Shown: piece after piece, positions 1-28,511 of the stretch
Position numbering within the stretch: position 1 is the first letter of the stretch
How the letters are laid out: each line of letters opens with the position of its first letter
Assembly: GCF_004010195.1 (NCBI RefSeq)
Contig: NC_057719.1
Span: forward strand, 42,807,925-42,871,924
DNA: 64,000 nucleotides
Direction of reading: 5' to 3'
DNA from: Chiloscyllium plagiosum
Lineage: Eukaryota
Notes under the pieces: model-generated
The model's input: the letters and a program-made list of their open reading frames with translations, nothing else
What the model was told of the DNA's origin: nothing
Database searches by the model: none
Program-made: the position numbers and the translations under genes

Positions 1-95
1 TTCCTGCTGAAGAGCTTTTGCCTGAAATGTCTATTTTCCTGCTCCTCAGATGCTGCCTGACCTGCTGTGCTTTTCCAGTGCCACACATTTCGACC
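1..95 (+). mobile_element. Penelope-like element terminal repeat, family A (degenerate)
   Basis: Matches the 3' end of the PLE at 22096-22184 (ctgatgaagggcttttgcc..gaaa..gatgctgcctgacctgctgtgcttttccagc). Confidence 0.75.
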
Positions 96-99
96 CCCA

Positions 100-935: not shown

Positions 936-949
936 TACCTCCTTGATGT

Positions 950-1475: not shown

Positions 1476-2105
1476 AGTGGGGAGACGAAATGCAGACTTG
1501 GTGATCAGTTTGTGAATCACCTAACATTTGGTCCATAAAAAGGACACTGAGCGTCAGTTGCCTGCGATTTCAACACTCCACTGGGATCCCAGGTTAATGT
1601 TGCTGTCTCAGGCCTGCTGCAGAACTCTCGTGTGGCTCATTACAAGCTGGGGGAACTATACCTCTGCTGTGATACCTTACAGCCAGCACTCAACATCAAA
1701 TTTAATGATTTCAGAATGTGAACACCCAGATCAATGTTTGTTATCATGCCCCCACATCACTAAATCCTGTCTTGTATGTGTTGCTCCCAGCACAGTCAAT
1801 CCATTTTTAACCATTTACACTTCTCATTCGCACTCTATCTAGCATTTATCTCTTTCTTGGATCATCATTAGCAATCTATCTGTTTGCCTTTCTCTTTTTA
1901 GGCTCTCTTTCTCTCTGGGCTCCATCTCCAAGTACTCTATTCATTTTCTCTACCTCATCTTCAACATAAATACCATTCTTTCACCAGTTATTTTCAAATC
2001 TGATGAACAATCACTGGACTTGAAATATTAACTCTGTTTTGCTCTCCACACATGCTGCCAAGTCTTCTGAGTTTCTCTGGGACTTTCTGATTTTGTTTTT
2101 CTTCA
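1476..2105 (+). mobile_element. Decayed Penelope-like element 3' part (family B terminus)
   Basis: GETKCRLGDQFVNHL (GIY-YIG continuation), pyrimidine-rich UTR and a ctgatgaa..tcactggacttgaaatattaactctg terminus. Confidence 0.65.
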
Positions 2106-2729: not shown

Positions 2730-3290
2730 CTCAAACACACTTTACCAAAACGCACACACACATACAACTCCATGGAGTGAATTTGCATTTGCAGATTTGT
2801 ATTTGCAGATACATTCTATTTTGTTCAAAAAGCACATAATCTGTAGGCAGTCAGTTCATCTGACATTTTATTAATTCCTACTTTGAAATAGAACCAGTCT
2901 GACTCAAAGTTGACAGACTCTAACCTCATGCCTTTAATGCATTTTCTGAGCAGAGATGTCACTTTTTTTATAAAAACTAAAGTTATTTCGGGACTGTGAC
3001 TTGAAAGAAGTTCTGGGATTTACATATTAATTAACCGAAACTTGAATCCCTATTCTGAGTGATTAAAGACTTAATAGCAATCTAGGTTTGTTTAATATAT
3101 CGCATCAGTTGTATGACATTTGACCTTTACTATAAATTCTGTGTCCTATGTCCTGTCCCAATCATTACCTGATAAAGGAGCAGTGCTCTGAAAGCTTGTA
3201 CTTTGCAATAAACCTGTTGGACTTTCAGCTGGTTTTGAGTGATTTTTAACTTTGTCCATCCTGGTCTAACACCAGCAACTCCACATCTCG
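2730..3290 (+). mobile_element. Penelope-like element 3' region (family C terminus)
   Basis: Ends cctgataaaggagcagtgctctgaaagcttg...aataaacctgttggact, the same terminus as 8098-8310 and 38869-38960. Confidence 0.65.
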
Positions 3291-3559: not shown

Positions 3560-3683
3560 GGTGAAATCTTGCTTCGTGAATTAGAGAAATTGCCATCAAA
3601 AAATGTTAGTGTGCGCATTGCATCAAGTACGCTTTCCTTTCCACATCAATTTTCCACTGATCTCAAAATTCTAAAAGAGAAAG
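3560..3683 (+). CDS. PLD4: PLD4 (5'-3' exonuclease, phospholipase D family) internal coding exon, first in window
   Basis: ctaccacAG acceptor and GTgag donor. Translates GEILLRELEKLPSKNVSVRIASSTLSFPHQFSTDLKILKEK+G, matching PLD4 GEALLQKL...NISLAVA...STDLQVL. Phase 0/1. Confidence 0.9.
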
Positions 3684-3949
3684 GTGAGAATTATAATACT
3701 TATTAACTAATTTAATTTTCTTTGGTAAGTTTCAGTGTATGTGGGACAAGGAGAACATTGCTGCATTAGGCATCTTGGACTCTAAAGAATGCAATTGAAG
3801 TGGAATGATGAGATGGATCTGGGTTGGGAAGGGGATCGGAACACAGCAGACACTTACTTTTTGATGTTATATGTTGTTGAATGTTTCTATTTCTGATGAA
3901 GCAAGGAACAGAAGATTTAATCCATTGTTCCAGGTGCAATAGTCTTCCT

Positions 3950-4089
3950 GTATTCACGGAGTTGAAGCTAACAGAGCCTGCACAAAATAAGAGTTGAGGC
4001 CTGGGGTAGTTAAGCCATGATCTTATGGAATGGTAGGGCAGTCATGAGGAACTGAATGGCCAATTCCTGCTTCTATTTTTTAGGTTCTA
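3950..4089 (+). mobile_element. 140-bp CR1 3'-end insertion with 22-bp flanking direct repeat
   Basis: ttccaggtgcaatagtcttcct at 3928-3949 and 4090-4111. The insert is a close copy of 5747-5886. Confidence 0.85.
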
Positions 4090-5169
4090 TTCCAGGTGCA
4101 ATAGTCTTCCTCGTAACACATACTATGATAAGTTTATGTTGCTAAAATGTAAGTTTTTATGTTTACTTTACAGCCTGCTGACCTGTTATGTATTTCCAGA
4201 CATTTGTTTAATTTAAGATTTTAGCATTTTCACCTTTTCTTGCTTTTATATGCAGGTAATGTAAGGGAGTTAACCAAATCATTTTAGATATGTTGGGCTG
4301 AATCTTACCTTTCTAGGCAAAGTACAAGTTGTTTCATGATTTATGGAGGGATTTTCATCATGAGGGATAGCATGATTTCTTACCAAAAGCATCTCAGTAA
4401 CTACCTACCCTGCTCCTGTGGTGATTCTTATGTCTAATTTCAACAGCATCTTACCACACATTCTTCCTGGGATAACTTAGTACTCAGTGGACACCTGCTG
4501 AAAGATAGCTTGCATTATTGATGATAGGCCACTGTGCAACCAGACAAGCTTTAGTAATGTGGCATTGCCCCTCACCGGCAGTATAATGGGCACAGTAATC
4601 ACCAAACCATGATGTCCATAACATATAGTCAACATTAATGACACATTACTGCGTGTATAATCCCACCAGTTTCTCACACTAGTCACTCTTTAACCACCAG
4701 GCCATACACTTTACCTGTGCTTACCATCTCAACACCTTCTGCAAATGCACAGCAGCCATTCACACTTTGTCACAGTCCAGTGCGGGAACATCAGACACCC
4801 ACAAGCAATCAGACTAGTCCTAGCATGAACTTGTATTGACAGCCAACAAAAGTTAACACAAAGGAAATGGATACAGGCTACAGTTTGCAATCACAATGCA
4901 ATCCAAATGACAGATGAATCTTGACAAGTCAAGATGGTGTCCTTCACCCAGCTTGCAGCTACTGGAACTCGAATGTCAAACACACCATCTCTTGTAGAGC
5001 CCAATACAACTGAGCACTGCTATCCACAAAGAGAATTTTCTCAAGCTCATCCTTTTCCTCGGATGACTGCTCCTGTTTCCCAGCTCCTTAGCATCTATCA
5101 CATCATTTCATTTCTTGCTCCAAATGTGCAGAGCACAACATTCCAGAACTCTCTGTCCAGACTACACTT

Positions 5170-5886
5170 GAGGGCAGGCTATTAATTAAATGGAAAAAGA
5201 CTCCAAAAAAGTGCAGTGCACAGTCATTTCATTCTTGTGTATGAAACACAGGAAGTTAGCATGCTTGTGCAGCAAGTAGTTAAGAAGGCAAATTGAATTT
5301 TGGTCTTTTTTGCTCAGATGTTTAAAAAATTTAAAAACAGGGAAAGATGTTGATGAGGCCACACCTAAAATACTGTGTACAGTTTTGGTCACCATATTTA
5401 AGAAAGGATTTGCTTGCATTGGAGGCAGTTCAAAAGAGATTCACCAAACTCATTCCTGGGATGAAGAGATTACAGGTTAGGCATGTATTCATTACAATTT
5501 AGAAGAATCAAGGGTAATCTAATTGAAACATACAAGATTTTGAATGGGCTTCAGAGGGTAGATATTTTCACTATTGGGTGAATCTGAACTGGGTGATATA
5601 GTTATTGAAGAAGAAAACATCATTTAAGACTGAGATGTGAAGGAACGTCTCTCAGAAGATAGTTCATGTATGGAATTTTCTATCTCAGAGAGAGGTGTAA
5701 GTTAGATCACTGAAGTATCTAAAGAGTAGGTAGATGGATTTTTGAAGTATTCACGGAGTTGAAGCTAACAGAGCCAGCACAAAATAAGAGTTGAGGCCTA
5801 GGGTATCTAAACCATGATCTTATGGAATGGTAGGGCAGTCATGAGGAACTGAATGGCCAATTCCTGCTTCTATTCTTATGTTCTTA
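5170..5886 (+). mobile_element. Old CR1 3' fragment
   Basis: Decayed RPHLKYCVQFWSP, LEAVQKRFTKLIPG and gaatggcc..ttcctgcttctatt tail. Confidence 0.8.
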
Positions 5887-5889
5887 TTA

Positions 5890-6020
5890 CAACATTGCAC
5901 TTTGTGGAAGTTTGCTGCTTGGAGATTGGCTGTCATATGTCAACATGACAAAAGTGACTACGCATTCACAGTAATTCATTGGTTGTGAAAGGCAATATAT
6001 AATTCTAACTTCTTTCATTC
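5890..6020 (+). mobile_element. DeuSINE-like (SacSINE/AmnSINE-type) central and 3' fragment; a similar relic lies at ~30885-31035
   Basis: attggctg...acaaaagtgactac..ttca..gtaattcattggttgtgaaaggc..tatataa resembles the Deu domain and L2-derived tail as recalled. Confidence 0.45.
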
Positions 6021-6177
6021 TTTTAAATTGAGTCCCAAGCTTGTGGAGGTCAAAGTATTTCTGCATGAATCAGTATAAGTGAAATTTCACATTCACATTT
6101 ATCTCTGATGCTCTGTTGCTGCAGATATCCACTCATCAGAGAAATTTTAATATGAAATGTCTTCCGTTCTACATGAG

Positions 6178-6520
6178 GCCAGCATGGTGACTCAGTGGTT
6201 AGCACTGCTGCCTCACAGCACCAGGGACCCGGCTCCATCCTAAGGAGTTTGCACACTCTACCTGTGTCTGTGTGGGTTTCCTCCAAGTACTTTGGTTTCC
6301 TCCCAAAGTCCAAAGATGGGCAGGTTATGTGGATCGGTTGAGCTAAATTACCTATAGTGCCCAGGGATGTACAAGCTAAAAAAGCTAGGTGAATTAGCCA
6401 TAGGAAATGTGGGGTTATAGAGTGGGGGGGGGGGGGGGGGGGGGTAGGATGCTCTTCAGAAGACCAGTGTGGACTCAATGGGTCGAATGGCCTACTACCA
6501 CACTAGAGGGATTGTATGAG
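6178..6520 (+). mobile_element. tRNA-derived HE1-like SINE
   Basis: A-box ggtgactcagtggttagcactgctgcctcacag, body gtgggtttcctcc..tccaaagatg and CR1-like tail gggattgtatg. Internal poly-G. Confidence 0.85.
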
Positions 6521-6835
6521 CCTGGATGGGGGAGAACTTTGATAAACTATCTGAAATATTTGCTGCAGTTTTATTGATAGAATTATAATGGCAACATTTG
6601 TTGAGGAAGAAGTTTGAATTTGGGAGAAAATCTTTCCTAATATAATGAATTTTTAACAATAAATAATGTTCTGGACATAAAAGACAAAAAAACAAGTAAA
6701 GAAAGTTAGATAAATATTACTTATAAATGTTCTTTTTTCCAAAAACCTATATTAATTTGATATTACTTGGAGAGCAAACAATGTAGAATTTGGAACTGAT
6801 GCTCCATATTTTGACCAAATTGTCTTAAATTACAG

Positions 6836-6963
6836 GCATCCATGTAAGGAAAGTAAACTTTCAAAAGTTATTGAGTGGTGTACTTCACACAAAACTCTGG
6901 ATTGTTGATAAGAAACATATTTATATTGGCAGTGCTAATATGGATTGGAGAGCACTAACTCAG
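6836..6963 (+). CDS. PLD4: PLD4 exon with first HKD motif
   Basis: ttacAG acceptor. Translates (G)[42 protein letters not shown], with HxKxxxxD at 6886-6909. Donor is GCaagt. Confidence 0.95.
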
Positions 6964-7394
6964 GCAAGTATAGCACCTAGTCCACGGTTAAGCAGCCCTA
7001 TTAATTATTGTGTTTCTGACATCCTACATCTCAGTTAATAATGTGTTAATTTTTGTAACAAGTTGTTACATCTATTTATCCTCAATCTCTGATTCTGACG
7101 GAAGGAGGGCAGGAGTCTTATCCAAGTCTTGTCTTTAGTTATCAAATGTTTGTGCAATACATTATGCTGATCGTATTGGGAGGGTTTACATTAAGTTTGG
7201 TATGGGGAATGGGGTTCAGACAAGATACAGCTGGAGTAAAATTGTAAGTGAAAATTCAAAACAAAGAATTAATGGAATGCAGAAGAAACAAAGATTAGAA
7301 TTTAAAAAAAACAGAGTTGGCAGTGATCAAGGGTATCTATAACAATGCAAGGAGTATGGAAAATAACATAGATAAATTGATAGAGCAAAAGTAC

Positions 7395-8900
7395 ATAGGA
7401 ACAGGACTGTTCCATTCTGCATATTGAGCCCACTCTGCCATTCACTATCATCACTAATCAAACATTTCAATGCCTTTTACCCACATTATCCAATAATTCT
7501 TTAAACCATTAGTAATCAAGAATCTATCAATCTTGACTTTAAATATACTCACTCAGCTTCCTCAGCCTCTGGGATAGAGAATTTGAAAGATTCACCATCC
7601 TTTGAGTTAAAGAATGTTTCCTTATCCAAATTCTAAATGGAATCCCCTTATTTTTAAATTGTGCTCCTGGTTCTAGATTCTCCAACCAGAGGAAACATCT
7701 TACTTGTATCTATTCAGTCTATCTCTTTAAGTACTTTGCAGCTTTCAACTATATCACCTCTCTGTCTTTAAAAATCTAGAGAATACAGGCTCAGTCTATC
7801 CAATCTCTCTTCATAAGACAGTCTCCACATTGCAGAAACAAGTCTGGTGAATTTTCATTTAACTCTCTCTCTGGTAATAGTACCTTTTCCTCAAGTTCGA
7901 TGTTTTTCTTAACTCCTTTCGTTAACTGTAGATGGTGGGTCCTCCCTTCAAGATGGTTCTTGGTAGCAGGAATATATTTATTCTGGATACTCAAATATTC
8001 CCTAAAATGTTTGCTACTACATCTCGATTAATCTGTTCCCCGAGTCTTTTATATCACTTCACTTCAGCTCGATCAATTTTCATGCCCTTATAGGTGCCAA
8101 GTTAAAAATCACACAACACCAGATTATGGTCCAACAAGTTCAATTGGAAGCACTAACTTTAGGAGCACTGCTCTCTCATCAGGTGGTTTGAGGAGCAGCA
8201 CTCTGAAAGCTAGTGCTTCCAATTAAACCTGTTGGACTATAACCTGGTGTTTGTGTGATATTTTTAACTTTGTATACCCCAGTCCAACACCGGCATCTCC
8301 AAATCATGACTTATAATTGATGTTAGAGTCATAAAGGCCTTCAACATAGAAGAGGCTTCTTAAGCCATCGCATCTACACTGGTCAAAAACAACTACCTAA
8401 CTATTCTAATCCCATTTTACAACACTTGACCATAGCCTTTGCAAGTACACATATAAATACTTCTTAAATGGTATAAGGGTTTCTGCCTCTACCACTCTTA
8501 CAGGCATCAGTTCCAGATTTCACCACCCACTGAGTGAAAAAAAATCCTTATATCCCCTTTAAACCCTCTACCCTTGACCTTAAGTCTATGCCCCATTCAT
8601 CAAGCCCTCCACCAAGGGGGAAAAGTTCCTTCCTCTCTACCTTATCTATGTCCCTCATAATTTGTACATATCAAGCTCAGCTCCAAGGAAAGCAACCCTA
8701 GTCTATCCAATTTCTCTTCATAACTAAAACTCTCCAGTTCAGGCGACATTCTGACAAATCGCCTTTGCACCCTCTCCAGTGCAATCACATCTCTCCCATA
8801 ATGTGGATTCCAGAACTGTACATAGTAATCCAGCTGTGGCCTTACTGACATTCTATACAGTCCCAGCATAACCTCCATGCTCTTAAATTCTCTGCCTTTT
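7395..8900 (-). mobile_element. Cluster of decayed CR1 fragments (two 3' ends, ~7395-7880 and ~8320-8900)
   Basis: ORF 8642-8878 VRPQLDYYVQFWNP..ALERVQRRF and CR1-type 3' UTRs. Confidence 0.75.
8098..8310. mobile_element. Palindromic PLE family C mini-element
   Basis: aagttaaaaatcacacaacaccag..gtccaacaag is inverted to ..cctgttggactataacctggtg..tttttaactt. Centre carries ctgatgaga..gagcagtgctcc on -. Confidence 0.75.
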
Positions 8901-10381
8901 ATTTAGGTATAAAATATTAGTTAGACCCAATCTTCCTTTTAAACTGACATAAAGTTCAATCATATTGTGTTAACTGCTACCTAGTAGCTTATAACATTAG
9001 CAGGCTGAAAACAGACAAGGGTCTTAGGAGGAAAAAGGTAAAAATAGGAAGAGAACCAATTTCAATAATTTGATACGGAATTTGGAACAGCTGGATTGGA
9101 AATGAAGGTAAGCCAAAAAAAGAGTAAATGTGCAGAAAGTTTACTGAATTATTTACTGAATGACCCCCAAATAAAGAAATGGCTAACAACAAGATATCAC
9201 TTTTTTGCAAATGTTATTTTAGTATGAATCAAAGCTAATGCAAATAGCACATTAACAACAGGCAAGATGCTTCAAAGAAAAAGATAAATTTCACTTTAAT
9301 ACATTGATACAACAACAGTTTATCTTAGAAGACTTTGCACCATTTCCTACCCAGGCCCTGCCTCACAAATGTTGACAATATGTAACGACAAACCTACACC
9401 TTCTGATGTTCTTTATTCTCATAGGTAAGCTCAAGAGAGTTCTATCTGGCAACAGCTTTCATCTTTCAGCTTCATGGATGTGATTATCATCAGTTAAGCT
9501 CATTTCTATTACCTCTCTTGGGCCATGTAGTCCTGATGGTGTAATTAGAAAAGCAAAGGGAGGGCATGAAAGAATACTGTCAAGCAAAATCAATGTGAAT
9601 CCTAAGATGTTTTGTCAACACATGAAGGGTAAGAGAATAACTAAGAAAGAGTAGGACCCATAGAACACTAAGCAGGCAACTTAGATACAGAGGCAGAAAA
9701 CTTTAGTGTGGTTCTTACTTAATACTTTCCATCAGTCTTCACAAAAGAGAGTAGTGCAAATATTGTAGTAAAGGAGGAAGTATGTAACATATTGGACATG
9801 ATAATCACAGGGAATGGAGAAGTATGAATGGGATTAGCATCCCTGAAAGTGGATCAATCAACAGAATTAGTTGGAATGTACTCCAGACTCTTGAAAAGAA
9901 CCAGGGAAGAAATAGGAAGAAATCTGACCAATCCTCGTCAGATATGGATGTGATTGTGGAGGATTAAAGGATTGCAGATATTGTACCCTCATTTAAAAAG
10001 AGAGCAAGGAATAGGCCAAATATTTATTGGCAGGTAAGTCTATTCTCAGCAGTGGGAAAATGATCAAAATCAATTCTGAGACAGAAGATATACTATCACT
10101 TAGAACAGCACGGATTAATCAAGAATAGTCAGCATGGATTTGCTATAGGGAGTTTATGGCTGACCAATGTGAATTTTTTGTGGAAATAATATTGATAAGA
10201 GTAGCGCAGCTGAAGGAGGTCCACTTGAATTTAGTGAGGCTTTTAACAAAGTCCTGTCAGTGACTGGTTAAAGGAATAAAAGCACATGGGATTCAGGGAA
10301 TGTAGCAAGCTGGACTCAAATTTGGCTCAGTGGAATTGTCAGTGATTGTTTTTGCGTCTGGAAGGCTGTTTCTAGTGGATA

Positions 10382-10590
10382 AAGTGAGGTCTGCAGATGC
10401 TGGAGATCAGAGCTGAAAATGTGTTGCTGGAACAGTGCAGCAGGTCAGGCAGCATCCAGGGAACAGGAGAATCGACGTTTCGGGCATAAGCCATTCCTGA
10501 AGAAGGGCTTATGCCCGAAACGTTGATTCTCCTGTTCCCTGGATGCTGCCTGACCTACTGCGCTGTTCCAGCAACACATTTTCAGCTCTG
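10382..10590. mobile_element. Palindromic PLE family A mini-element with 16-bp TSD and hammerhead core
   Basis: 85-bp inverted arms at 10408-10492 and 10506-10590. TSD ctgtttctagtggata at 10366-10381 and 10588-10603. Confidence 0.9.
10497..10524 (+). ncRNA. Putative minimal hammerhead ribozyme core
   Basis: CTGAAGA-A-GGGC(TTAT)GCCC-GAAA-CG-TT: CUGANGA box, stem II, GAAA box, palindromic ACGT stem III and UH site. Confidence 0.65.
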
Positions 10591-11804
10591 TTTCTAGTGG
10601 ATAGCTTGTTATGATGGGATGAGGAAGGATAATCGGCTCAGTCTTTGTAACTTTCTCTCTGGGTTGTGACAAATATTTTCATCTCTTCTTATCACACAGT
10701 TGTCACACTTCATTACTAGCTTGCTGTAAAATGGAAGAATCAATTTATAAAGTTTTGTTGAGTGAAAGCAAGAGGCATTTTATCATCTACTAACCCTAAG
10801 AAGAGATAATAAAATGAAATATCACACACACAGGCAAGCACACAGGTAATAGGTCTTTTTTTAGAAAAGTTCATTGTATAGTATAAGCGGGGAGAATCAA
10901 AGTTAAACATTTTATAGAAGGGCTTAGAGTTCTTGAGTTATTAGATTAATCTGAGACCATGGTTGTTTAATGGCTGACTTGTATCCTCAGCAGTAGCAGA
11001 ATCTTTTGATATTTTTGATTCTTTGATGAATTGTTGTGTTTTCATCGTGTGCTGTTTTAAGCTGATGAGAGAAATGGCAGGTAGAGAGAGGGTCTATTAG
11101 TTCTTGCTCACAAATCCAGTTTTCCTTGTCTCTACTCTGCTGCTCAAAAACATAATTTGAAATATAGTTCAGTGTGTTTTCCAAAATCTAGCTCATTCTC
11201 CAAGCTGGTTATCTGGCAGGTAACCTTTCATCTCCCATTGTGTCAAATTCTCATACAAGTGTGATTTAAAACAGGAGATGCTTTTTTTCAAAAAATCACT
11301 GACCTAATTGCCTGATTGTGGTGTCTTTAGATATAAATTGTCATTCCAGTGCATAAAACTTCATTTATTCCATATAGATCTCACAAAGTATGTTGTAAGC
11401 AGTGGTCATGTGACAATTACAACCATTTGATGTTCATATTTTTTCCATCTTTAAAAACCATTTATTCCTCGAATGGTCTCAGGTTTAACAATTAGATCAT
11501 TGAAGTTATAATTCGTTATTTATTCCTATAGTAAGAAACTGTGGACAGCAGGAAGGTATCATTGGACTGATCAGGTGGGCAGAAAGTGGCAAATGGAAAT
11601 CAGGCCAGAAAGTGTGAGGTAAATGCATTTGGAGAGATTAACAAGGCAAAGGGACATAGAACTAATAGGAAAATATTAAGAGGCATAGATGAAGTGAGGG
11701 ACCCTGGAGTGAATATTGATAGGTAATATTGAAGGTAACATGTTTGGTTGATAAGGTGGTTAAGAAGACATAAGGAATAATTTCCTTTATTAGTATAGAC
11801 ACAG

Positions 11805-12420
11805 AAACATTGAAATATAGAAAATAAGAAGAGAAGTAGGCGACTCGGCCAATTGTGTCTGCTCTGGTTCCTGCCTTCTCCACATATCCTTTGGTCCCTT
11901 CAGCCCTAACAACTGCAGAGGAACCTCGATCATCCGAAGGACACAGGCAGGGAATATTTCATTTGGTTAATGGAATTTCGGATAATTGAATACCAGATAA
12001 CATAATTCAGGACCTTGCGATCTTGCCGGATAATCCAATATTCAGATAATCGAATGCCGGATAATCGAGGTTTCTCTGTAAATCAAACTCCTTCTTTTGG
12101 CCTCAAACACTTTGTGCAGCAAATAATTCCACAGGCTTACTACTCACTGGGTGAAGAAATCTCTCCTCAACTCAATCCTAAATGGTCGATACTGTACCAT
12201 TAAACAGTGACCTCTGGTTTTGGACTCACCAGGCATTGTGTTTACTCTGTAGGATTCTCAATGAGAATCTCCCTCTTTCTTCTAAACTCTTGTGAATATA
12301 GTCCCAACCAAAGCAGTCTCTCTTCAGATGTCAGCCCTGCCATTCCCAGGAATCATTCTGGTAAACCTTCACTGCATTTCCTTCCTCAGATATGGAGACC
12401 AAAATTGCACACAATACTTT
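11805..12420 (-). mobile_element. CR1 3' fragment nested in the older CR1
   Basis: Reverse strand shows gtattgtgtgcaattttggtctccatatctgaggaagg (YCVQFWSPYLRK) and a CR1 3' UTR. Confidence 0.7.
11916..12078. mobile_element. Tigger/pogo-like MITE
   Basis: TIRs cagaggaacctcgatcatccg / cggataatcgaggtttctctg, flanked by TG/TA (decayed TA TSD). Internal ggataat repeats. Confidence 0.8.
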
Positions 12421-12839
12421 ACATGGCTTTTTTGAAATTGTACAAGTCATTATTTAGACCACAACTTGAGCACTGATAACAGTCCTGTCATTTCATTACA
12501 GAAAAGTTGTAATTGTAACCAAAGAGGCTACAGAATGTTGCCAGGCCTGGAAAAAACACAGTCATGGGGAATGATCAGATAGTAAGGGACATTGGAGTGA
12601 ATATTGATAGGGAATATTGAAGGTAACATGTTTGTAGCAGATAGGCTGTGGTTGTACCCCTGCCCGAAAGGGCATTAGAGGCATAAGCCCTCGATTCATT
12701 TAAAAGGTGTCTGTATCCACACCTTAAGTGGCATAACTTTACAGTGCTACAGAGTAAAAGCTGGAAAGTGGGATTCGGCTGGGTGGCTCATTTTACAGCT
12801 GGTGCAAACACTATGGCTACTGGTCTCGCTCTGTGCTCT

Positions 12840-13220
12840 TTCAGGCAGTGAATTCCTGATCTCAGATCATCCTCTGGGAGAAAGAAAAACTCCTCATCTC
12901 CCCTCTAACCATTCCACTAATCACTTTAAACCTACATATTTAGCCACTGACCATTCTGTTTAGGTAAATTGGCCCTTCCATCCATTCTATTTAGACCCTT
13001 CTCAATTTTGTACATCTCAATTAAATGTCTCCTCAGCTCAGCCTCCTCTGTTTTAAGGCAAATAGCTCCAGCCTGTCCAATCTTTCCTCACTGCTTCATT
13101 TTTACAGTTTTGACAACATCCTCAAATCTTCTCTGTAGCCTCTCCAGTACAATTAGATCCTTTCTGTCATGAAGTGACCAGAACTGCACACTGCACTCAA
13201 ATTCTGGCCTAACTAATGAT
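12840..13220 (-). mobile_element. CR1 3' fragment
   Basis: Reverse strand reads RPEFECSVQFWSL, VLERLQRRF and EMYKIEKGLN. Confidence 0.7.
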
Positions 13221-14853
13221 TGCTATACTGTAAATCCTTTCTGATAATATCAGAGATTATTCTACCTTTATCATAATTTCCACTAACTGTCATTCTGGAT
13301 AACATTGTTAGGACTATTTCCTTGGGCAGTGACAAAGTTGTATCAGTTTAGCAGCAATTTGCTGATCTATCAATCAGTCAATTCAATTGCCTCACTCTAT
13401 TTGGTCAGGTTTAAATGTTATATCAAAAGTGTAACATTATGAAGAAAATAAGATTATAATTCTTATTTTAGTACCCATATTTTAGAAAGGAGCCGACTGT
13501 AAGGTTATTTTGATACTGTGGTCTCTGGTATAAACAGATTGACATTTTTACAGGAGCTCAAATTCAAGTGTCTTGCAATGATTTTATTGATTTCTTAACA
13601 ATCAAATCCTGAACTCAGTTTGCAAAAAGAAAACTCGTGAGTGATTCAGTTGCAGACACGGAGGTGGATGTGCTTTGCAAATAGCTCCTGACAGTGGGTC
13701 AATGCCCTGATGTCACTCGGGATCATTACTATTTTCACTGGGTGGAAGATGGGAATTCAATTACTTGCAATTAACTGTCCTTAAGCTCCTTGAACAGCTC
13801 ATTTCTGGGCAGAGCGAGAAGGTAATGTTCAAAGCACAGATTGGTGAACGTGAACTGGCATATTTGTAAGGTGCAATTAAATTTTCTTCCCAGCGAGCAT
13901 TATTATGTCAGAGAGAGTGCCGTAGCTTTCTGTGAGCTGTTTGGCCACTTGGCTGCACCATCAGGCTGCCAACCCTCTAAACCCTCATGCCTCCTCTATT
14001 CTGCAAACCAATCTCATGACCAGTCAGAACCATCGACAGCTTTTGAGGTTCGTACTTAAGAGTTGGTTCTTCCACCATTAAATGGGTGTTGAGCTTGCCT
14101 CCAATCCATTGGATAATCTGCATTTGAAGAAAGCATCACATCAGCAAAACAGAAACAGCACAATATTTGGGACCTGGCTCTAAACCCCATGTGCATGTGC
14201 ATGCAAACTGTATTTATGTCCTTGAAAATGACCACCTTTAACACTGTTGGACCCTCACACTGCCTGAGAATTAAATGTAACTATGGAAAAAAATATTGAG
14301 TTGAATGGGATCATGAATGGTGGTGCTGTCAAAATGCAATAAATACAGGTTAAATCATTTAGTCATACCAATTTTAAACAGACAGAAATAATTAATTATG
14401 TTACAGCATAAAATCATATTTCCTGAGATCAGTAATTGGTTTATTTAGTCACCTTTCATTGTGGCAGTTACTAAGAAAGATTATTTTTGTTAACTAATAC
14501 ATTAGCATTGCCTAACAATATAAGAGATCCAATTCTGCATCAACTATGCCAGCAGCAATTCAACATGATGGTTAAAACTTTAAAGAAAATTTTAAATTGT
14601 TTAAATCTGATCGTGCATCAGTTGATATGAATCAGGCAGATGTAAAAAGGTCTTACGCTAATTCTGTATGCTCGAGTAAAGACAGATCATAAGTATCATA
14701 CTGCGAAAAGTAAACATGAGAATAGATTTGAATCAGTTATGAATGTGGTCTGGTAATGTAACTGCAATATTAGTCAATCTAATTATATGGGTTATTTGTC
14801 TCTTATTATATTATCAGACATAGTCACAGATCATTTACTGTAATTTCTTACAG

Positions 14854-15054
14854 GTGAAAGAACTGGGTGCTGTGGTTTACAATTGCAGTTGCCTTGCCAA
14901 TGATTTCTCCAAAATCTTTGAAGCTTACTGGAGTCTCGCACTGCCAAATGCCACCATCCCATCACCATGGCCAGCTTTTTATTCAACAAATTTTAACAAA
15001 GACACACCTCTTGACGTGAAACTGAATGGAACTGCTGCAAAAATGTACTTTTCA
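14854..15054 (+). CDS. PLD4: PLD4 coding exon
   Basis: ttacAG / GTaagt, 201 nt. Translates VKELGAVVYNCSCLANDFSKIFEAYWSLALPNATIPSPWPAFYSTNFNKDTPLDVKLNGTAAKMYFS. Confidence 0.95.
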
Positions 15055-16689
15055 GTAAGTTGATGCAAATATTAAGTTTTCAAATAAATAAATAAATACT
15101 GTTTACACACAATACAAACTGGAACATCCATGAAAATGATCTTTATCTATATACTGCACTCCAAAACATTCAAAGATATACTTACCAACTGCTGAGGCAT
15201 GCTGGGGACTGGTCATCAAATTTCACTTGGCAACCTTTATAATTACTGCATGAAATGTATGCTTCTTCCTTTTAAACAGAGTAGTTTGTAGTTTGCGTAG
15301 CTCAAGTTTGTTTGTCAGCTGATCAGCAGATTTCATATGGACCATGTAAATTCTGTAGTGGAGATACCTGTACAAGAGTTTGTTACAAGATTAATCATTG
15401 CTTCTCTGCTGTTACATTAGCCTGCTCCACCTCTTCCAGAGATGAAAGTTGAATACTTAGGGAAAAGAATCTATATTTAACAGATATTACTGTGAAACAC
15501 CATTAGAAGAAAAGCTAAAATAATAAATTTGCATAGTATTTTGTTGCACGGTATTCACATTAGTGAGAGTGTGAAAAAGAGAAGGAAAAGAAATAATTGC
15601 CACAAGCTCTGATATTTCCCAGCCTGCTAGACTTCATGTTGGCTTATGGCCACATTCTCAGCATAACAGGCTGTTTCTTATAAGGGATTTGATCTGAATG
15701 AGTCCTCTTCTGTTTACATTCGCTGGTGTTAAAAGGAGCTTTTTTTCTGCAAATGGATGAGTCAAATCGATATGTTCTTCTCCTTCAAGTAGTACTCGCA
15801 ATTATTCAAGGAGTGAAGCATCATAATTTATCCCTAACTTTACCTCAGTTGGAACAAGGATTGAACTCTGCACTCTCACCATTATTCTGAACCAAGTGCT
15901 AGCCATTTAGCCAACTGAGTTCACCATATGCTCCTTCCCCCTATTCCTGTTAGCATGTTATGAGTTAGGACAGACTCAGGCTGTTGAGAAACAAGTGGCC
16001 ATTCTGTGTCATTACAAATGTGTAATAAATGAAGCTTGTTTTGTGGAATCTCCTTTCTAAATTGGCAAGGCAAAACTGGTTCAGCTTTACATTATGTTAA
16101 TAAAGAATATCTTGCCATGATGCAGACATGCTTCTGAAGCGAGAGCAGAGCAAAGGTTGCTTTCAGAGGGCTGTGCATACAGTTTCAGTCAAATTGTCTG
16201 AAAAAAATAATTTGGGGGCTTGATGCTTTTATTCTGGATTCAGGGCAGTGCTGTCTAGCCTTATCTTGGCTCTGTATGTCTGAGTGTTGAAAGCCATTAG
16301 TTCTGTCAGCTGCTACCTGTCAAGGAAACTGGATATTTTCTCTCACATGACACTTGCCTTGGAACCAAAGGAAAAACCCTCAGATAAAGAAATAGAGTAA
16401 GATTGGGAAATTATATTGGGAGGAGGCCATTGTGGAGTATAAACATTGGTAGAAGCCAATAAGATGGGTTGAATGGTGTGTTTTATATCACGTAATTTAC
16501 ATGACTTCATGTGTATTACAGACATCTCCTGAAAAGGTAATGCTGCACTCAACTCTCCCCAGTCTGAACCCTCCCAACCTTAATCAGTCACAAACTCATG
16601 TTGAAGAAATACACTTAAGCTCTGACTGCAAATGATTCTGGTCTGCCCCATTATTTGGGGAGTTTCTTTGCTTTATCTCTCCGTCCTTA

Positions 16690-17010
16690 CCGTTTTTTAT
16701 CATCCAATTCCTCCATCTGTGCCATCCTCTTTCCTTCTCCACAAACCTTCCTATTCCTGACTCCACATTGTCAAACATTCCCTTTATACCCCTCCCACCT
16801 TTGTTCCCATTGGTCCCATTCCTTCTCCTTTACACCTGTCTTTTCTCCCTCTTCCCTTTCTCCCTCTTCCCTTTCTCATTCCCCAACCCTTCACCCCCAC
16901 TTCCTGCTCCCTTTTCCCACTCTTTATTCTCTTGTCCTCTTTCACTTTCTTTCTCATCCTTCCGTGCTCCCTTCCTCCTTCATGTCTCCTCCCTGCTCTC
17001 TTCCCAATAA
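16690..17010 (+). repeat. Low-complexity polypyrimidine tract
   Basis: About 300 bp almost entirely C/T. Confidence 0.8.
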
Positions 17011-17276
17011 GTTTGGAGCAGTATGGAGGAGCCTTACTAGGTATGTGAGTAATTCTGTATTATGAGTGATCCAACACTTTTTAATGTCTCTCAGTTACAT
17101 CAGTTCCTTGAAAAACCTGCATTTAAAACCGAATCAGGGATAATATAGGGAGTGTAGTATATATGGATACTCTCTAAACAAAAACCTACTGAGACCATGA
17201 TATTAAGCCATTTAATAGTCATTCACTGTATTGGAATTGGATGGAGAAATGCAACTGAAATTGTTATTCTTTCTAG

Positions 17277-17416
17277 AGTTCACCTCCCAAGTTATGCCCA
17301 AAAGGTCGGACTACTGATCTTGATGCTATTCTCAGTGGTATCAATGCTGCGAAGAAGTTTCTATATATTTCTGTCATGGAATATTTTCCAACATCGCGTT
17401 TCCTACAACATGTACT
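17277..17416 (+). CDS. PLD4: PLD4 coding exon
   Basis: ttctAG / GTaagt. Translates SSPPKLCPKGRTTDLDAILSGINAAKKFLYISVMEYFPTSRFLQHV+CT; SVMEYFPT is PLD4-type. Confidence 0.95.
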
Positions 17417-17502
17417 GTAAGTAAAGTAGTTTACCAGTGCTCAATATTTATTTGTAAACCTAAAAAAATGTACATGACATTAAATCTCACTTTGTGATCT
17501 AG

Positions 17503-17665
17503 ATATTGGCCACATATTGATGACTCGTTGAGAAAAGCAGCTATTGAACGTCATGTTCGTGTTCAACTGTTGGTTGGTTACTGGAAACATACAGATAAAT
17601 CCATGCTGGCTTATCTTCAATCACTGCAAGCTCTAAGAAACATCAGGAAGGTCCATTTTGATGTG
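17503..17665 (+). CDS. PLD4: PLD4 coding exon
   Basis: Follows an 86-nt GT-AG intron. Translates YWPHIDDSLRKAAIERHVRVQLLVGYWKHTDKSMLAYLQSLQALRNIRKVHFDV. Donor GTgaat. Confidence 0.93.
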
Positions 17666-18076
17666 GTGAATAATGCTTTATTTTTTACTAACAGGGTTAA
17701 TAATTACTGAAAGCTTAATCATTTTCAGCTAATGTTTTAATAAAGGCCAAATTATCTGTGGGGATGAACACGAATTTAAACTATTAACTCATTCCCTGAA
17801 GTAAATTAAGATGGAAACTGACACGGATGAAAATATTGAGAAAATTCTAATAAAGAATTTACTTACTTTAACTTTGTTCAAAAATATATTTCATTCCAAC
17901 TCTTAGGTTTTCCAAAATTTCTTACAAATACATATTTATTTTTCAGGGGTTTCTTTTAATTGTGCAAAGCTTTGTTTTATTTACTTATTTGTGAGTTTAT
18001 TTATTTTGTGCAGGAAGTGCATTTTCAAAATAAATAATGAATTGATTTCTTACATAATTCACAAATTATTTTTCAG

Positions 18077-18173
18077 AAACTATTCATTGTTCCTGTGGGA
18101 AAATTTAGCAATATTCCTTATGCAAGAGTGTGTCACACCAAATACTTTGTGACGGAAAATATTGCCTATATAG
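18077..18173 (+). CDS. PLD4: PLD4 exon with second (HKE) catalytic motif
   Basis: tttcAG / GTaagg. Translates KLFIVPVGKFSNIPYARVCHTKYFVTENIAYI+G, with HxKxxxxE at 18134-18157. Confidence 0.95.
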
Positions 18174-18249
18174 GTAAGGGCATTATCTTTCATTCAATGC
18201 TTCTATGTCCTAAAAAATTAAAGAAATGAAGAAGAAACAAGCAAGGTAG

Positions 18250-18580
18250 AAAGATAGGAACCTTAGTTGAGTGCTTGGATTTCCAAAACGCACTTCATGA
18301 GATACCGCACCAAAGTTTACTGTATAAGAGTTCATGGTATATGAGACAACATTGATTGGCAAAGAAGAAACAGAGAGTAGGATTAAATAGGTCTTCCTTT
18401 CACGGTGGCATATTGTAACCAGAGGAACACCACAGGGATCAATGCTGGGCCCTCAACTATTTACAAACTATATTAATGATTTTGATGATAGGAATGAAAT
18501 TACTGTAGCTATATTTGCTGATAAGCAGCAAGCTGGGTAGGGAATTAAGTTGTCAAGATGAGGCAGAAAATTTTCAAAGA
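18250..18580 (+). mobile_element. CR1 RT-domain fragment
   Basis: LDFQNALHEIPHQ, GTPQGSMLGPQLFTNYINDFD and IFAD motifs. Confidence 0.75.
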
Positions 18581-19870
18581 ATAGAATAGCCTTTATTGCC
18601 ACATGCACTTGAATGAGTGCAGTGAAAGGTTTGTAATATCACCTCTTGGTGCTATCTTAAGCATAGGGTACCTATGTACAGATACTTTAAGTGTTATTAC
18701 AGAATTGAAATAGTAAAAAAATGATTAGCATGGGAATACAAGTTTAAAAATTTCAGAATGATAATCAAAAGCGTCTTTAAGGTACTTAAGTTACAGTTCA
18801 TTTCCACTGAGTGTGTGCCCACCGGACTTCAGAACATGAGGCCTCGCTGCCTCCATGCACTGGCCTCTGTCCTGGACTCACCTCCAGGGACTTGTACCCC
18901 TGGCCTGTACTCTGCTCCCGGCTCCAGGCCCTGGGCTCCTGGTTCTGGGCTCTGGCTGCGACTCAATTCCAGAACTCAGCCCACGCTCGGTCTGCTCCTG
19001 CTCCAAGCTCTGGCCATAATTCACTTCTGGGACTCAGCCCATGTTATATATGGTTAAGGGACATAATTTTAATTGAGTTTAGCAATGTTTTGCCAGAAGG
19101 TATATAACGTGTGTAAATATGATCTTTCCCCTCCGGCCATACTATTAAAAACACCATTTATAAATGTCACAAATGACAGTGACAGTGGCAAACTATCTTT
19201 CCTTATCCATTTCAAATGGACTGCACTTGACCAGTTCCAAACTTACCAATCTAATAGATGCCAAAGACTTATCTCACACTGCCTTCTCTTCCCAAACCGT
19301 GTTGTTATATCCGGTGTCCCCTGAGAATCTACACAAAATGCCCCCACCTCCAATTTCTGTTTTTGTTTGCAGACTCCTCCAACCTGATAATGCTGTGGGA
19401 TAGCTACATCCTCCATTATGGCCTCTTGAAAATCCCTGATTTTAATTTTGCCCGAGCCTTTAATAGCCTGGACATCAGGCCTTGAAATTCCTTCTTCAAA
19501 CCTTTCTCCCTTGATAAGTTAGACTTTAAGATCCCTTAAACCCAATCTCTTTGACCAAGATTTTTTCATTTACCTGAGTATCCCTTTAGTTGAGTCAATG
19601 TACAATTTTGTTTGATAGTTCTCCTGCAAAGCACATTAGAACATTTTATTGACTTAATGGCGCTATATAAATATTAGCTGTTGGTAGCATTTACCCATTT
19701 TTCTGTGACATTCTTTGGAATAGTCTGAAGAATGTGAGTTGGCCAAATCAATCTGATGTCATTTTGATTATTTTTCTTTTTTTCTTCTTTTCTAATACTT
19801 GCAACTTGTTTTATCTTGGCAAGATATTTCAGATCATTGGGTTGAATATCACCTGAATTGGCTGTGTCAA

Positions 19871-22184
19871 AGACTCCCGCCCACCTTCCGAGATTCCATC
19901 AAGACTCCCGCCCACCTTCCGAGGACCCCTTCACCTGCCTCCAACACACCCTATCCAACTGGACACCCCATACCAGTCTGTTAACCGTCCTCGACCTCTT
20001 TATTGCCAACTACTGCTGGGATATTGACCACCTCAACCTGTCCCCCCCCCCCCCACTCCAACCTCTCACCTTCACAACGCACAGTCCTCCACTCCCTCCG
20101 CTCCAATTGCAACTTCACCATCAAACAAGCGGGTAAGGAGTGTGCAGTGGTAGTTTGGCGCGCTGACGTCTACACCGCAGAAGCCAGGCACTAACTTGAA
20201 GACACCTCCTCTTACTGCTCCCTTGACCACAACCTCACTTCCCATTACCACACCATCATCTCTCAAACCGTACACAACCTCATCATCTCGGGGGATCTCC
20301 CACCCACAGCTTCCAACCTCATAGTTCGGGAACACCGCACCGCCCGGTTCTATCTCCTTCCGAAGATCCACAAGCCTGACTATCCCGGCCGACCTATCGT
20401 CTCAGCCTACTCCTACCCCACCGAGTTCACCTCCACATACCTCAATACAATACTATCCTATCCTTCCCCCCCACCACCACACCCCATGCCGGTCCAGGAA
20501 CTCCCCACATACATTCGGGACACCACCAATGCACTCTACCTCATCCAAGACCTCCGTTTCCCTGGCCCCCAATGCCTCATCTTCACCATGGACATCCAGT
20601 CCCTATACACCTACATCTGCCATGACCAGGGCCTCCAAGCCCTCCATTTCTTCCTCTCCCGATGTCCCCACCAGTACCCTTCCACTGACATCCTTACTTG
20701 TTTGGCTGAACTGGTCCTCACCCTCAATAATTTCTCCTTTGAATCTTCCCACTTCCTCCCGATGAAAGGAGTAGCCATGGGCCCCAGCTATGCCTGTCTC
20801 TTTGCTGGCTATGTAGAACAGTCCATCTTTCACAGTTACACCCACACCATGTCCCCCTTTTCCTCCGCTACATTGGTAACTGCATCGGCGTAACCTTGTG
20901 CTCCCACGAGGAGGGTGAACAGTTCATCAACTTCATCAACACATTCCACCCCGATCTTAAATTCACCTGGACCATCTCAGTTACCTCCCTCCCCTTTCTG
21001 GATCTCTCCACCTCCATCAATAGTGACCAACACAACACTGGCATCTTCTACAAACCCACTGATTCCACACCTACCTGGATTACACCTCCCCCTACCTTGC
21101 CTCCTGTAAAAATGCTATCCCGTATTCCCAATTCCTCTGCCACATCTGTTCCCAGGAGGACCAGTTCCACCACAGAACACACCAGATGGCCCCTTCTTTA
21201 AAGACCACAATTTCCCCTCGCACGTGGTTGATGATCCCCTCCAGCGCATCTCATCTTCTTCCCACACCTCTATCCTCCAACCACAACAAGGACAGAACAC
21301 TCCTGGTCCTCACCTTCCACCCCACCAACCTCCGTGTACATCGTATCATCCTCCGCCATGTCCACCACCTACAAACGGACCCCACCACCAGAGATATATT
21401 TCCCACCCCACTCCTATCCACTTTCCATAAAGACCGTTCCCTCCACAACTGCCTCGTCAGGTCCGCGTCCCTTAACAACCCACCCTCCCTTCCCGGAACC
21501 TTCCTCTGTCACCACAGGAATTGCAAAACCTGCGCCCACACCTCCCCCCTCACCTCTGTCCAAGGCCCCAAAGGAGCCTTCCACATCCATCAGAGATTTA
21601 CCTGTACTTCCACACATATTATTTACTGTATCCGTTGTCTCCTCTACATTGGGGATACAGGACGCCTTCTCGCAGAGCGCTTCTGAGAATGTCTCTGGGT
21701 CACCTGCACCAACCAACCCCACTGCCCCATGGCCGAACACTTCAACCAAGGACTTGTAGGTCCAAGGCCGCCTCCATCACCACTCCCTAACCACCCGACG
21801 CCTGGAGGAAGAACACCTCATCTTCTGCCTCGGGACCCTCCAACCCCATGTGGATTTCACCAGTTTGCTCATTTCCCCTCCCCTCACCTTATCCTAGTTC
21901 CAACCTTCCAACTCAGCACCACCTCATGACCGATCCTACCTGTCAATCTTCCTTCCCACCTATCCGTTCCACCCTCCCCTCCGACCTGTCATCTTTACCC
22001 CCACCTCCATTCATTTATTGCACTCTCAGCTACTTTCTCCCCTTCACCACCCCCTCCCACTTATCTCTCCATTCCCAAAGTTCCCAGCCTCATTCCTGAT
22101 GAAGGGCTTTTGCTTGAAACGTCAATTTTCCTGCTTCTCGGATGCTGCCTGACTTGCTGTGCTTTTCCAGCACCACACTCTCGA
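19871..22184 (+). mobile_element. Penelope-like retroelement (decayed RT + GIY-YIG endonuclease), 5'-truncated, family A terminus
   Basis: RFYLLPKIHKPDYPGRPIVS, FTMDIQSLYT, KGVAMG, LPFLDL and CTSTHIIYCIRC..LYIGDTGR, with many stops and frameshifts. TSD ctgtgtcaa at 19862-19870 and 22185-22193. Confidence 0.92.
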
Positions 22185-22199
22185 CTGTGTCAACTTTAG

Positions 22200-23954: not shown

Positions 23955-24687
23955 ACAGTCTTTAATACCTGTGCTTCGTGGAATCGAGAGCAGAATATTA
24001 CGATCCGCATCATTGGGTTTGTGGGTGGAATGGAGCACATGAAATTCTAAGATGAACGTTTCTCTGGTCCATGACGTGTCCTTAATTTATGGGGGGCATG
24101 CAATGCCTATGGTCTCCAGTTGAGGTCATTAATGGCGTACTCAAAGCCATCTAGGGGCCGCTTTTGCCCAACCCTAGTTTTAAGGCTGGTGGGAGGAGGT
24201 CAGGGAAAGGGTGTAGCAAGAAAGGCACACCCAGTATGTCACACTTCAGTCCTCAGGTGGTAAAATGGGGGAGACTCACTCATATCTTTTCCACATCACA
24301 CCCCTCTCCCCACATCTTCCCATCCCCACAGTGTTTCCTATCCTCAGGCATCTCCATCAAGACCCCCAACTAAGGTTGCTTCCCCACCTCCCAGGGCCAC
24401 CAAGCCCGTTGTTGTTGTGAAAGCACCCAGCACCTATCTCTGGCCAGGTTGTGGAACTTGCATTCTTGGGGCCTTGTGTCATACCATCAGTGGTCACCAG
24501 ATTGGTCAACAGCTTTCTGCGGCAGGATTTCATTCTGAGTGAGGGGCAGAAGTATCAGGTCCAGTCAGTCAGAACTCCTCAGAGTGCTAAGTGGCAGTAG
24601 AGGAGCTGCGGTTGGCAGTGTTTTAACCTGACTCTCCTAGTGGCAAGGTGAGAATTTCCAACACCCATTCATATGTGCCCCAATGTT

Positions 24688-25557: not shown

Positions 25558-25653
25558 GTGCCCCAATGTTAAAGTTGCTGTTGTTAGTACAGAACTGCAA
25601 CTTTATTGCTCAAATTTGTCTAATGTCATCTCCATGATCATCTTATTGTTCAT

Positions 25654-28270: not shown

Positions 28271-28511
28271 CTATATTCAAACATTATCATCCCCACAGCC
28301 AGCCCTGTCACTCCTAATTTTTTTTTCTTTTTGTATCCACAACTGAATGTTTTTTTCCCATCACCAAATCACCCATCCTTTTTTTCACCTTCTCACCATC
28401 ACCAATTGGGTAACTTACATGTAAAACCCATTCAAGGCAATGCAGGCCAGCAAAGATGAGGGAGAGTTAGGGAAAGGGGGAGGGGGATGGCAGGGGGACC
28501 CCAATTCTTTT

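What the first reader, a model, noticed from the sequence alone, without database searches (positions are those of the whole stretch)
10497..10524. Four unrelated PLE termini share a minimal hammerhead-ribozyme fold with covarying stems
Seen: family A CTGA(A/T)GA-A-GGGC(TTAT)GCCC-GAAA-CGT(T/C) at 10497, 22096, ~45270(-) and ~55425. Family B ..GA-A-(G)GGTCACTGGACCC-GAAA-CATT, reconstructed from ~2000 and 44010-44065. Family C CTGATGA-A-GGAGC(AGT)GCTC(C/T)-GAAA-GCT(A/T) at ~3169, ~8160-8212 and 38871. Family D C(C)GATGA-T-TTTACC(TAGTAT)GGTGAC-GAAA-GGTC at ~42707-42742(-). The CUGANGA and GAAA boxes stay fixed while stem II changes completely yet still pairs, and stem III in families A and C is a 4-nt palindrome (ACGT or AGCT). 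Established: PLEs carry minimal hammerheads proposed to cleave as dimers. Inference: about a dozen ribozyme relics lie in 64 kb, several in sense orientation inside the PLD4 pre-mRNA. All have one extra nucleotide after CUGANGA.
Basis: partly seen in the sequence, partly recalled or inferred. Interest (0 to 1): 0.72.

Follow-up and report, generated by a model that had tools for sequence, protein, structure and literature searches.

The report
Penelope transposon minimal hammerhead relics
The motifs are real, mostly decayed copies of the miniature "hammerhead" self-cutting RNA motif already known from Penelope-like jumping genes; this genome holds over 110,000 intact-looking copies, most were likely copied from uncut RNA, and the ones in this gene's introns are likely inert.

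Summary
The motifs are real and of a known kind. All four family consensuses are minimal type I hammerheads: CUGANGA, one extra base, a paired stem II, GAAA, a palindromic ACGU/AGCU stem III and an NUH site. They sit in the pseudo-LTRs of Penelope-like elements (A, B, C Neptune-type; D Poseidon-type). Cervera and De la Peña 2014 list the extra base, the palindrome, G10.1-C11.1 and the U3-A8 variant.

Corrections: A and B are homologous, not unrelated. B and D are also palindromic. Of 12 window copies spanning both boxes, 8 have a core mutation. Only 10497 passes every test, and it is predicted to be buried in an 89-bp fold-back inside an intron that a transcript contig shows spliced out.

Added: at least 112,640 exact motifs genome-wide. 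One B-related subfamily fixed a compensatory U3-A8 pair (1,029 copies versus 1 with C3-G8). In families A to C, copy 5' ends pile up at the ribozyme's 5' edge, about 31 nt past a TATA-like box, with no excess at the cut site. The RNA therefore likely starts at the ribozyme and is copied uncut. No cleavage was shown. The scan's earlier notes report the same on other DNA (80 hits).

The parts
10497..10524 (+). Family A minimal hammerhead, the only copy passing every test: core intact, extra A at 10504, stem II 10505-10508/10513-10516, ACGU palindrome, GUU site (family norm GUC), predicted cut after 10524
10408..10590 (.). 89-bp inverted repeat of two family A pLTR stubs; predicted to bury the 10497 hammerhead (stem II pairing probability 0.00 with the partner, 0.99 without)
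19894..21921 (+). Broken Neptune-type PLE coding region (RT, CxxC linker, GIY-YIG) upstream of the 22096 hammerhead
   Evidence: a 749-aa relative scores RVT_1 E=1.2e-8 and GIY-YIG E=2.9e-4
22096..22123 (+). Family A hammerhead in the 3' pLTR; core intact, two G-U pairs in stem II, first stem I pair broken
4..91 (+). Family A arm, A6 mutated, stem II 3 of 4 pairs
45180..45349 (.). Family A inverted pair; hammerhead C3 at 45272(-), A13 mutated
53852..53938 (+). Family A arm lacking the CUGANGA box
55338..55516 (.). Family A inverted pair; hammerhead at 55425(+), C3 and G12 mutated
2000..2098 (+). Family B arm; core intact, stem II 3 of 5 pairs
43916..44075 (.). Family B inverted pair: C3 at 44037(-) with U4 mutated; C3 at 44040(+) with G5 and G12 mutated
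29897..30047 (.). Family B inverted pair lacking the core; further coreless B arms at 44375-44450 and 60199-60278
3169..3280 (+). Family C arm, G8 mutated; sense, in an intron of the PLD gene
8095..8299 (.). Family C inverted pair: C3 at 8182(-) with G12 mutated; the + arm has lost its core and carries the family's A(A/T)TAAA poly(A) signal at 8222-8227
37950..38962 (+). Family C PLE end: GIY-YIG remnant, TATA-like box and hammerhead at 38871-38899 (core intact, stem II mostly G-U); beyond the last PLD coding exon
42669..42900 (-). Family D Poseidon-type PLE end: endonuclease C-terminus, TATA-like box and hammerhead at 42743-42710 (U4 and G10.1 mutated, palindrome broken)
3560..29500 (+). Host PLD3/4-type gene: exons 3560-3681, 6834-6960, 14851-15054, 17277-17416, 17503-17664, 18076-18176 in one transcript contig; last coding exon near 29378 by motif

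Best explanation
These are decayed end-fragments of four Penelope-like retrotransposon families, each with a minimal hammerhead motif that likely cuts only slowly and only as a pair, and most fragments were likely copied from uncut RNA that begins at the ribozyme. Shown: the motifs lie downstream of PLE reverse transcriptase/GIY-YIG coding sequence, active lineages conserved core and stems, and copy 5' ends cluster at the ribozyme's 5' edge. Inferred, step 1: a TATA-like box in the pseudo-LTR starts transcription about 31 nt downstream, at the first base of stem I in A, B and C. Step 2: stem III has no loop, so catalysis needs a second copy to pair through ACGU or AGCU, probably helped by the element's protein. 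Step 3: reverse transcription starts inside the RNA, about 60-120 nt past C3, so priming at the RNA's 5' copy gives roughly 100-nt stubs, often as inverted pairs. Step 4: the stubs then decay, and those in the PLD introns are passengers.
For: PLE linkage, loci picked by coding sequence: 13 of 19 RT-selected loci have an A hammerhead 0.9-1.4 kb downstream; in 17 of 19 endonuclease-selected loci the first downstream hit is C; 9 of 9 for D (the D query ends beside the motif, so that test is less independent). 6 of 19 B loci have sense RT or endonuclease upstream. Selection on lineages: polymorphic non-CpG sites are 2 of 40 in the core versus 13 of 20 at N7 and loop II (Fisher p=1e-6), and stem II 7 of 35 (p=0.001 versus free sites). 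A B-related subfamily has U3-A8 in 1,029 exact copies, C3-A8 in 61 and C3-G8 in 1. 5' ends: A 40 of 152 at -5..-1 (8.0 per nt versus 0.13 upstream); B 14 of 72; C 20 of 65 at -9..-1. Cut-site windows hold 4, 4 and 0 copies against 3.0, 5.1 and 1.4 expected. TATA-like boxes lie at -35 (A weak, B), about -40 (C) and -50 (D), read. RNA reads from C-family copies carry an uncut core, and others end in poly(A) just downstream. Published: unprocessed RNA is the main insertion substrate, and cleavage needs the protein (PMC11167929).
Against: No transcription start was observed: no pile-up of read starts, and 93% of those reads run on into unrelated sequence, so they are mostly host read-through. The core is not clearly more conserved than the downstream tail (2 of 40 versus 18 of 96, p=0.06) and stem II is not (p=1.0); the tail may be constrained too. 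Sites and copies are not independent, so these p-values are optimistic. Many short arms are halves of inverted pairs (A 70 of 115), where junction microhomology blurs ends by a few bases. U3-G8, the fourth combination, was not counted genome-wide. D is weak: 2 of 17 ends at -22 against a predicted -19. Drosophila virilis Penelope has a TATA-less internal promoter (PMC2377424). Homodimer minimum-energy folds did not return the hammerhead dimer, though such folding cannot model the core.
Confidence: 0.72

Rival explanations
1. Same elements, but the shared 5' edge is where reverse transcriptase stalls or switches template on the folded ribozyme, not where the RNA starts.
For: The edge coincides with stem I in A, B and C. 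Ends tail off through the ribozyme body, and most short A and C arms have an inverted partner (A 70 of 115, C 37 of 49).
Against: The edge moves with the TATA-like box (-35 to -4 in A and B, -40 to -8/-9 in C). In D, where the box is at -50, only 1 of 17 ends lies near stem I and 2 lie at -22. A structural stall would be expected on the 3' side of a hairpin, not after it has been read through (inference).
Confidence: 0.17
2. Self-cleavage routinely processes the precursor and sets the element's ends, possibly through RNA circles, as Cervera and De la Peña proposed.
For: The catalytic geometry is conserved across lineages, including the U3-A8 swap. Two earlier scan notes report a small cut-site footprint in other genomes (unchecked).
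Against: No excess of ends at the cut site in A, B or C. 134 of 152 A, 58 of 72 B, 59 of 65 C and 17 of 17 D copies start upstream of it. The sample cannot exclude a footprint of a few percent.
Confidence: 0.07
3. The intronic copies, 10497 above all, cut the PLD pre-mRNA and tune the host gene.
For: 10497 and 22096 are sense, core-intact and share the ACGU palindrome, so they could in principle pair.
Against: 10497 is predicted to be locked in a -183.7 kcal/mol hairpin, and 22096 has stem II pairing probability at most 0.14. They are 11.6 kb apart. A transcript contig joins exons across the intron that holds 10497. One such A motif every 38 kb is the genome average.
Confidence: 0.03
4. The fold is a chance resemblance in ordinary repeats.
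For: Rfam found no hammerhead.
Against: 43 versus 0 in shuffles; 0 matches for reversed control patterns; compensatory core pair; placement as published for PLEs.
Confidence: 0.01

Closest known systems
Minimal hammerheads (min-HHR) of metazoan PLE pseudo-LTRs, Cervera and De la Peña 2014, PMC4209133 (read parts 1-2 of 4; 2 of 3 supplements searched)
   Same: Type I topology, no stem III loop, palindromic 15.2-16.2, extra base between 9 and 10.1, G10.1-C11.1, short stem I, many families per genome, U3-A8 variant, location in Neptune and Poseidon pLTRs.
   Different: No shark terms in the two supplements searched or in the parts read. The largest count in those parts is about 9,000 (Xenopus tropicalis) against at least 112,640 here, with different descriptors. 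They propose cleavage-defined processing; the copy ends here point to uncut templates.
Poseidon element PAc of Anolis carolinensis, Frangieh et al. 2024, PMC11167929 (read parts 1-2 of 4)
   Same: Hammerhead at the pLTR-ORF junction, two internal RT start sites giving a tail (here two 3'-end clusters in C at +82-85 and +110-112, and in D at +59 and +71), uncut RNA as the main substrate, no reads at the cut site.
   Different: Tested biochemically there, not here. The parts read do not map copy 5' ends to a start site at the ribozyme edge.
Dimer-cleaving PLE hammerheads, Lünse et al., as summarised in review PMC6765202 (passages read; the primary paper is not held)
   Same: Palindromic, very short stem III; dimer cleavage; low rates; promoter in the pLTR.
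   Different: Whether shark families are included could not be checked.
Non-LTR retrozymes, bioRxiv 10.64898/2026.07.22.740005 (part 1 of 5 and passages read)
   Same: PLE-derived type I hammerheads in vertebrates, including one chondrichthyan genome.
   Different: Retrozymes are tandem arrays; the window's copies are dispersed single or inverted stubs.

Membership tests
Metazoan PLE minimal hammerhead | CUGANGA and GAAA boxes with an NUH site | tested here: met
   All four consensuses; H17 is G in 2 of 217 sampled copies; met by only 4 of 12 window copies
Metazoan PLE minimal hammerhead | Paired stem II opening with G10.1-C11.1 | tested here: met
   4 bp (A), 5 bp (B, C), 6 bp (D)
Metazoan PLE minimal hammerhead | One unpaired base between 9 and 10.1 | tested here: met
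   142 motifs with it, 0 without
Metazoan PLE minimal hammerhead | Loopless palindromic stem III | tested here: met
   ACGU in A, B (after allowing CpG decay) and D; AGCU in C
Metazoan PLE minimal hammerhead | Short stem I closing a type I fold | tested here: met
   2-4 adjacent pairs by family; A mostly has a U-U mismatch, one A subfamily has 4 perfect pairs
Metazoan PLE minimal hammerhead | Located in the pLTR of an RT plus GIY-YIG element | tested here: met
Metazoan PLE minimal hammerhead | Self-cleavage as a dimer | not testable with these tools
   No assay; the RNA reads used are unsuited to 5'-OH ends
Neptune clade (A, B, C) | CX2-5CxxC linker between RT and GIY-YIG | tested here: met
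   Motif present in A, B and C loci; definition from PMC8557442 passages; no reference tree built
Penelope/Poseidon clade (D) | C-terminal GIY-YIG without the Neptune linker | tested here: inconclusive
   GIY-YIG E=2e-4; no linker at the expected place in 6 loci; the clade name rests on a recalled C-terminal motif and on no tree
Non-LTR retrozyme | Tandem repeat units, each with a hammerhead | tested here: not met
   Window copies are single or inverted stubs; no tandem-repeat scan was run
Rfam hammerhead families | Covariance-model hit | tested here: not met
   None among 14 matches at E up to 10

The most novel reading that the evidence does not exclude
In these vertebrate Penelope elements the hammerhead is the first thing transcribed. 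The RNA starts at stem I, so a cut would strip a roughly 32-37-nt capped leader and act as an off-switch or fate switch rather than a maturation step. More than 110,000 intact genomic motifs would then be a fossil record of uncut RNA 5' ends, and in family C the ribozyme sits between the start site and a used poly(A) site, like a retroviral R region.
Probability: 0.4. Interest if true: 0.5.

Novelty: new member of a known kind. Interest (0 to 1): 0.22.

Why it matters
What PLE hammerheads do in vivo is still open (PMC8557442 calls their function unclear). This genome offers young, very abundant families with natural variants (U3-A8 core, perfect versus mismatched stem I, GUC/GUU/CUA sites). 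It also gives a testable position for the ribozyme at the RNA's 5' end. The ribozyme class itself is not new, and the window's copies are unlikely to matter to the host gene.

Tried and rejected
Rfam scan: no hammerhead; the top hits were miRNA models matching the inverted repeats. Pfam on the window's own PLE fragments: no RT or GIY-YIG hit because they are broken; a longer relative was used instead. A 3' splice site as the cause of the 5' edge: rejected for A, which has no AG there and whose non-inverted short copies share no upstream exon; B does have AG sites near the edge, so it is not excluded for B. U3-A8 covariation in family C: I first suspected it, but it is 1 of 61 matches and the A8 cases follow C7, as CpG decay would give; rejected. 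Cut-site footprint: not found. Homodimer folding: uninformative. Sequencing runs: no RNA holder listed on record; run X20 laid 0 reads, and no start or end pile-ups were seen. The random sample stopped at 100 stretches (971,147 non-N bases), taken at round coordinates on contigs C1-C30 except C8; contigs from C31 on were not sampled. Exact genome-wide counts were not made for B1 or D. The A/B alignment included a one-base dummy row and was not used. Literature: 7 searches gave no paper on shark PLE hammerheads. Subscription papers, the Lünse paper, one Cervera supplement and the preprint's supplements were not seen and may cover them.

Full report
Setting. The window is G000:C10:42807925-42871924 of a 3.56-Gb vertebrate genome. 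That it is a shark is my inference from recalled repeat types and earlier scan notes; no call names it. A PLD3/4-type gene runs on the + strand. One 3,127-nt transcript contig joins exons 3560-3681, 6834-6960, 14851-15054, 17277-17416, 17503-17664 and 18076-18176 and continues 513 nt further upstream. The last coding exon is near 29378, by motif only. An AHNAK-like frame lies on the - strand at 59010-63732 (name recalled).

Observation. All listed motifs are present. Profiles built from 30 genomic copies per family find 20 arms in the window, and I added one short arm by hand. Twelve span both catalytic boxes. Four keep all 11 core bases (2000, 10497, 22096, 38871). Only 10497 also has a fully Watson-Crick stem II and the palindrome. 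A strict descriptor gave 43 hits in 776,561 non-N sampled bases against 0 in each of 10 shuffles, and 2 in the window against 1 hit in 100 shuffles. Exact genome-wide counts are 93,494 for A, 18,117 for C and 1,029 for one B-related motif, with 0 for reversed controls. Among sampled core-covering arms, 34 of 108 A, 0 of 39 B, 13 of 53 C and 0 of 17 D are intact. Rfam has no matching model.

Anatomy. Each consensus reads: short stem I, CUGANGA, one extra base (A in A-C, U in D), stem II of 4-6 pairs opening G-C, GAAA, two self-complementary bases, U, H, stem I. With no loop, stem III cannot close within one motif; two motifs could pair through ACGU or AGCU. B and D are palindromic too: their variants are the two CpG-decay products. 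Predicted cut triplets are GUC (A), GUU (B), CUA (C) and GUC/GUU (D).

Identity. The 22096 motif ends a broken RT-linker-GIY-YIG frame at 19894-21921; a 749-aa relative hits RVT_1 and, below cut-off, GIY-YIG. Loci chosen by coding sequence carry the matching motif downstream: A 13 of 19, C 17 of 19, D 9 of 9. Six of 19 B loci have sense RT or endonuclease upstream. A, B and C have the CX2-5CxxC linker of Neptune elements (PMC8557442 passages). D lacks it at that place and ends in a Poseidon-like C-terminus (recalled motif). A and B are homologous downstream of the cut site (0 of 500 shuffles reach the score); the other five pairs are not detectably so. So the window shows three dissimilar termini, not four, and all descend from one superfamily known to carry this motif.

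Selection. In the first 80 sampled stretches, sites with a second allele at 15% or more (CpG sites dropped) number 2 of 40 in the core, 7 of 35 in stem II, 13 of 20 at N7 and loop II, and 18 of 96 in the tail. Core versus free sites gives p=1e-6. Against this, core versus tail gives p=0.06 and stem II versus tail p=1.0, and copies are related. The clearest covariation is a B-related subfamily with U3-A8 in 1,029 exact copies, C3-A8 in 61 and C3-G8 in 1; U3-G8 was not counted. This points to selection in the source elements, not on inserted copies.

Copy ends. In 100 sampled stretches I found 175 A, 81 B, 70 C and 19 D arms; 152, 72, 65 and 17 passed the anchor, flank and N filters. Ends concentrate at the ribozyme's 5' edge: A 40 at -5..-1 (8.0 per nt versus 0.13 upstream), B 14, C 20 at -9..-1. 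The cut-site windows show no excess: 4, 4, 0 and 0 observed against 3.0, 5.1, 1.4 and 0 expected. B ends are noisy because its subfamilies are old and diverged. The edge lies about 31 nt past a TATA-like box in A (weak), B and C (read). D's box is at -50, and its few short copies start at -22 (2 of 17). 3' ends cluster at two sites in C and D, as the two internal RT starts of PAc would give (PMC11167929). I read this as uncut RNA beginning at stem I and primed internally. The start site itself was not observed: raw single-cell reads show no pile-up of starts and mostly come from host read-through. In one search, 336 reads end in poly(A) at 8239-8242, 12-15 nt after the C-family hexamer. Other reads laid on the same arm carry an intact core upstream (51, 47 and 186 reads at three loose ends). 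These reads come from many genomic copies, not necessarily this locus. C stubs end beyond that poly(A) site, which fits priming on the RNA's 5' copy.

Host gene. 3169, 10497 and 22096 are sense and intronic; 2000 and 4 may be, untested; 38871 lies outside. 10497 sits in an 89-bp, 96% complementary fold-back predicted to abolish stem II, and the intron that holds it is spliced out in the transcript contig. 3169 lacks G8. 22096 has weakened stems. A host role is unlikely.

Prior art. Cervera and De la Peña 2014 (PMC4209133, parts 1-2 of 4) describe every structural feature, including the extra base and U3-A8, and report low dimer activity. Frangieh 2024 (PMC11167929, parts 1-2 of 4) shows protein-assisted cleavage and uncut templates. 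I read passages of PMC8557442, PMC6765202, PMC6155905 and PMC2377424, and part 1 plus passages of the 2026 retrozyme preprint. Seven searches found no paper on shark PLE hammerheads or on copy ends at the ribozyme edge; that covers only the held library. Earlier scan notes reached the same reading on other DNA; they are not independent support, and two of them claim a cut-site footprint that I did not see here.

Verdict. Real, new members of a known kind, partly misdescribed. The copy number and the start-at-the-ribozyme pattern are modest additions. Interest 0.22.

Noticed in passing
window 8222-8242 (family C): The C pLTR carries a used poly(A) signal about 10 nt after the predicted cut site; 336 raw reads end in poly(A) at 8239-8242. 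C stubs could donate poly(A) sites to host transcripts.
   Followed up: partly
L150, L166, L185; genome-wide pattern: B-related subfamily with a U3-A8 core (1,029 exact copies). In two copies seen, stem I also appears changed from a U-A to a C-G pair.
   Followed up: partly
window 42743-42710 (-) and L063: In family D the endonuclease frame reads through the CUGANGA box and stops at a TAG in loop II, and an ATG lies just after it; a second Poseidon-like family shows the same frame end.
   Followed up: no
family B consensus; window 10518-10524: A GUU site extends the palindrome to six bases (AACGUU), which folding predicts as an intermolecular duplex and which might trap A14 and U17.
   Followed up: no
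family B, just past the cut site (window about 43985-44000, -): A branch-point-like, pyrimidine-rich stretch ending CAG directly precedes an ATG, resembling a 3' splice site before the frame start.
   Followed up: no
window 59010-63732 (-): Long repetitive AHNAK-like open frames, tail to tail with the PLD gene.
   Followed up: no
window 26-1373 (+), 26350-28368 (-), 46384-48692 (-): Broken LINE remnants with endonuclease and RT; Pfam hits for the 26350-28368 copy.
   Followed up: partly
window 40735-41138: 132-nt inverted repeat, 78% complementary, not matching the four hammerhead families.
   Followed up: no
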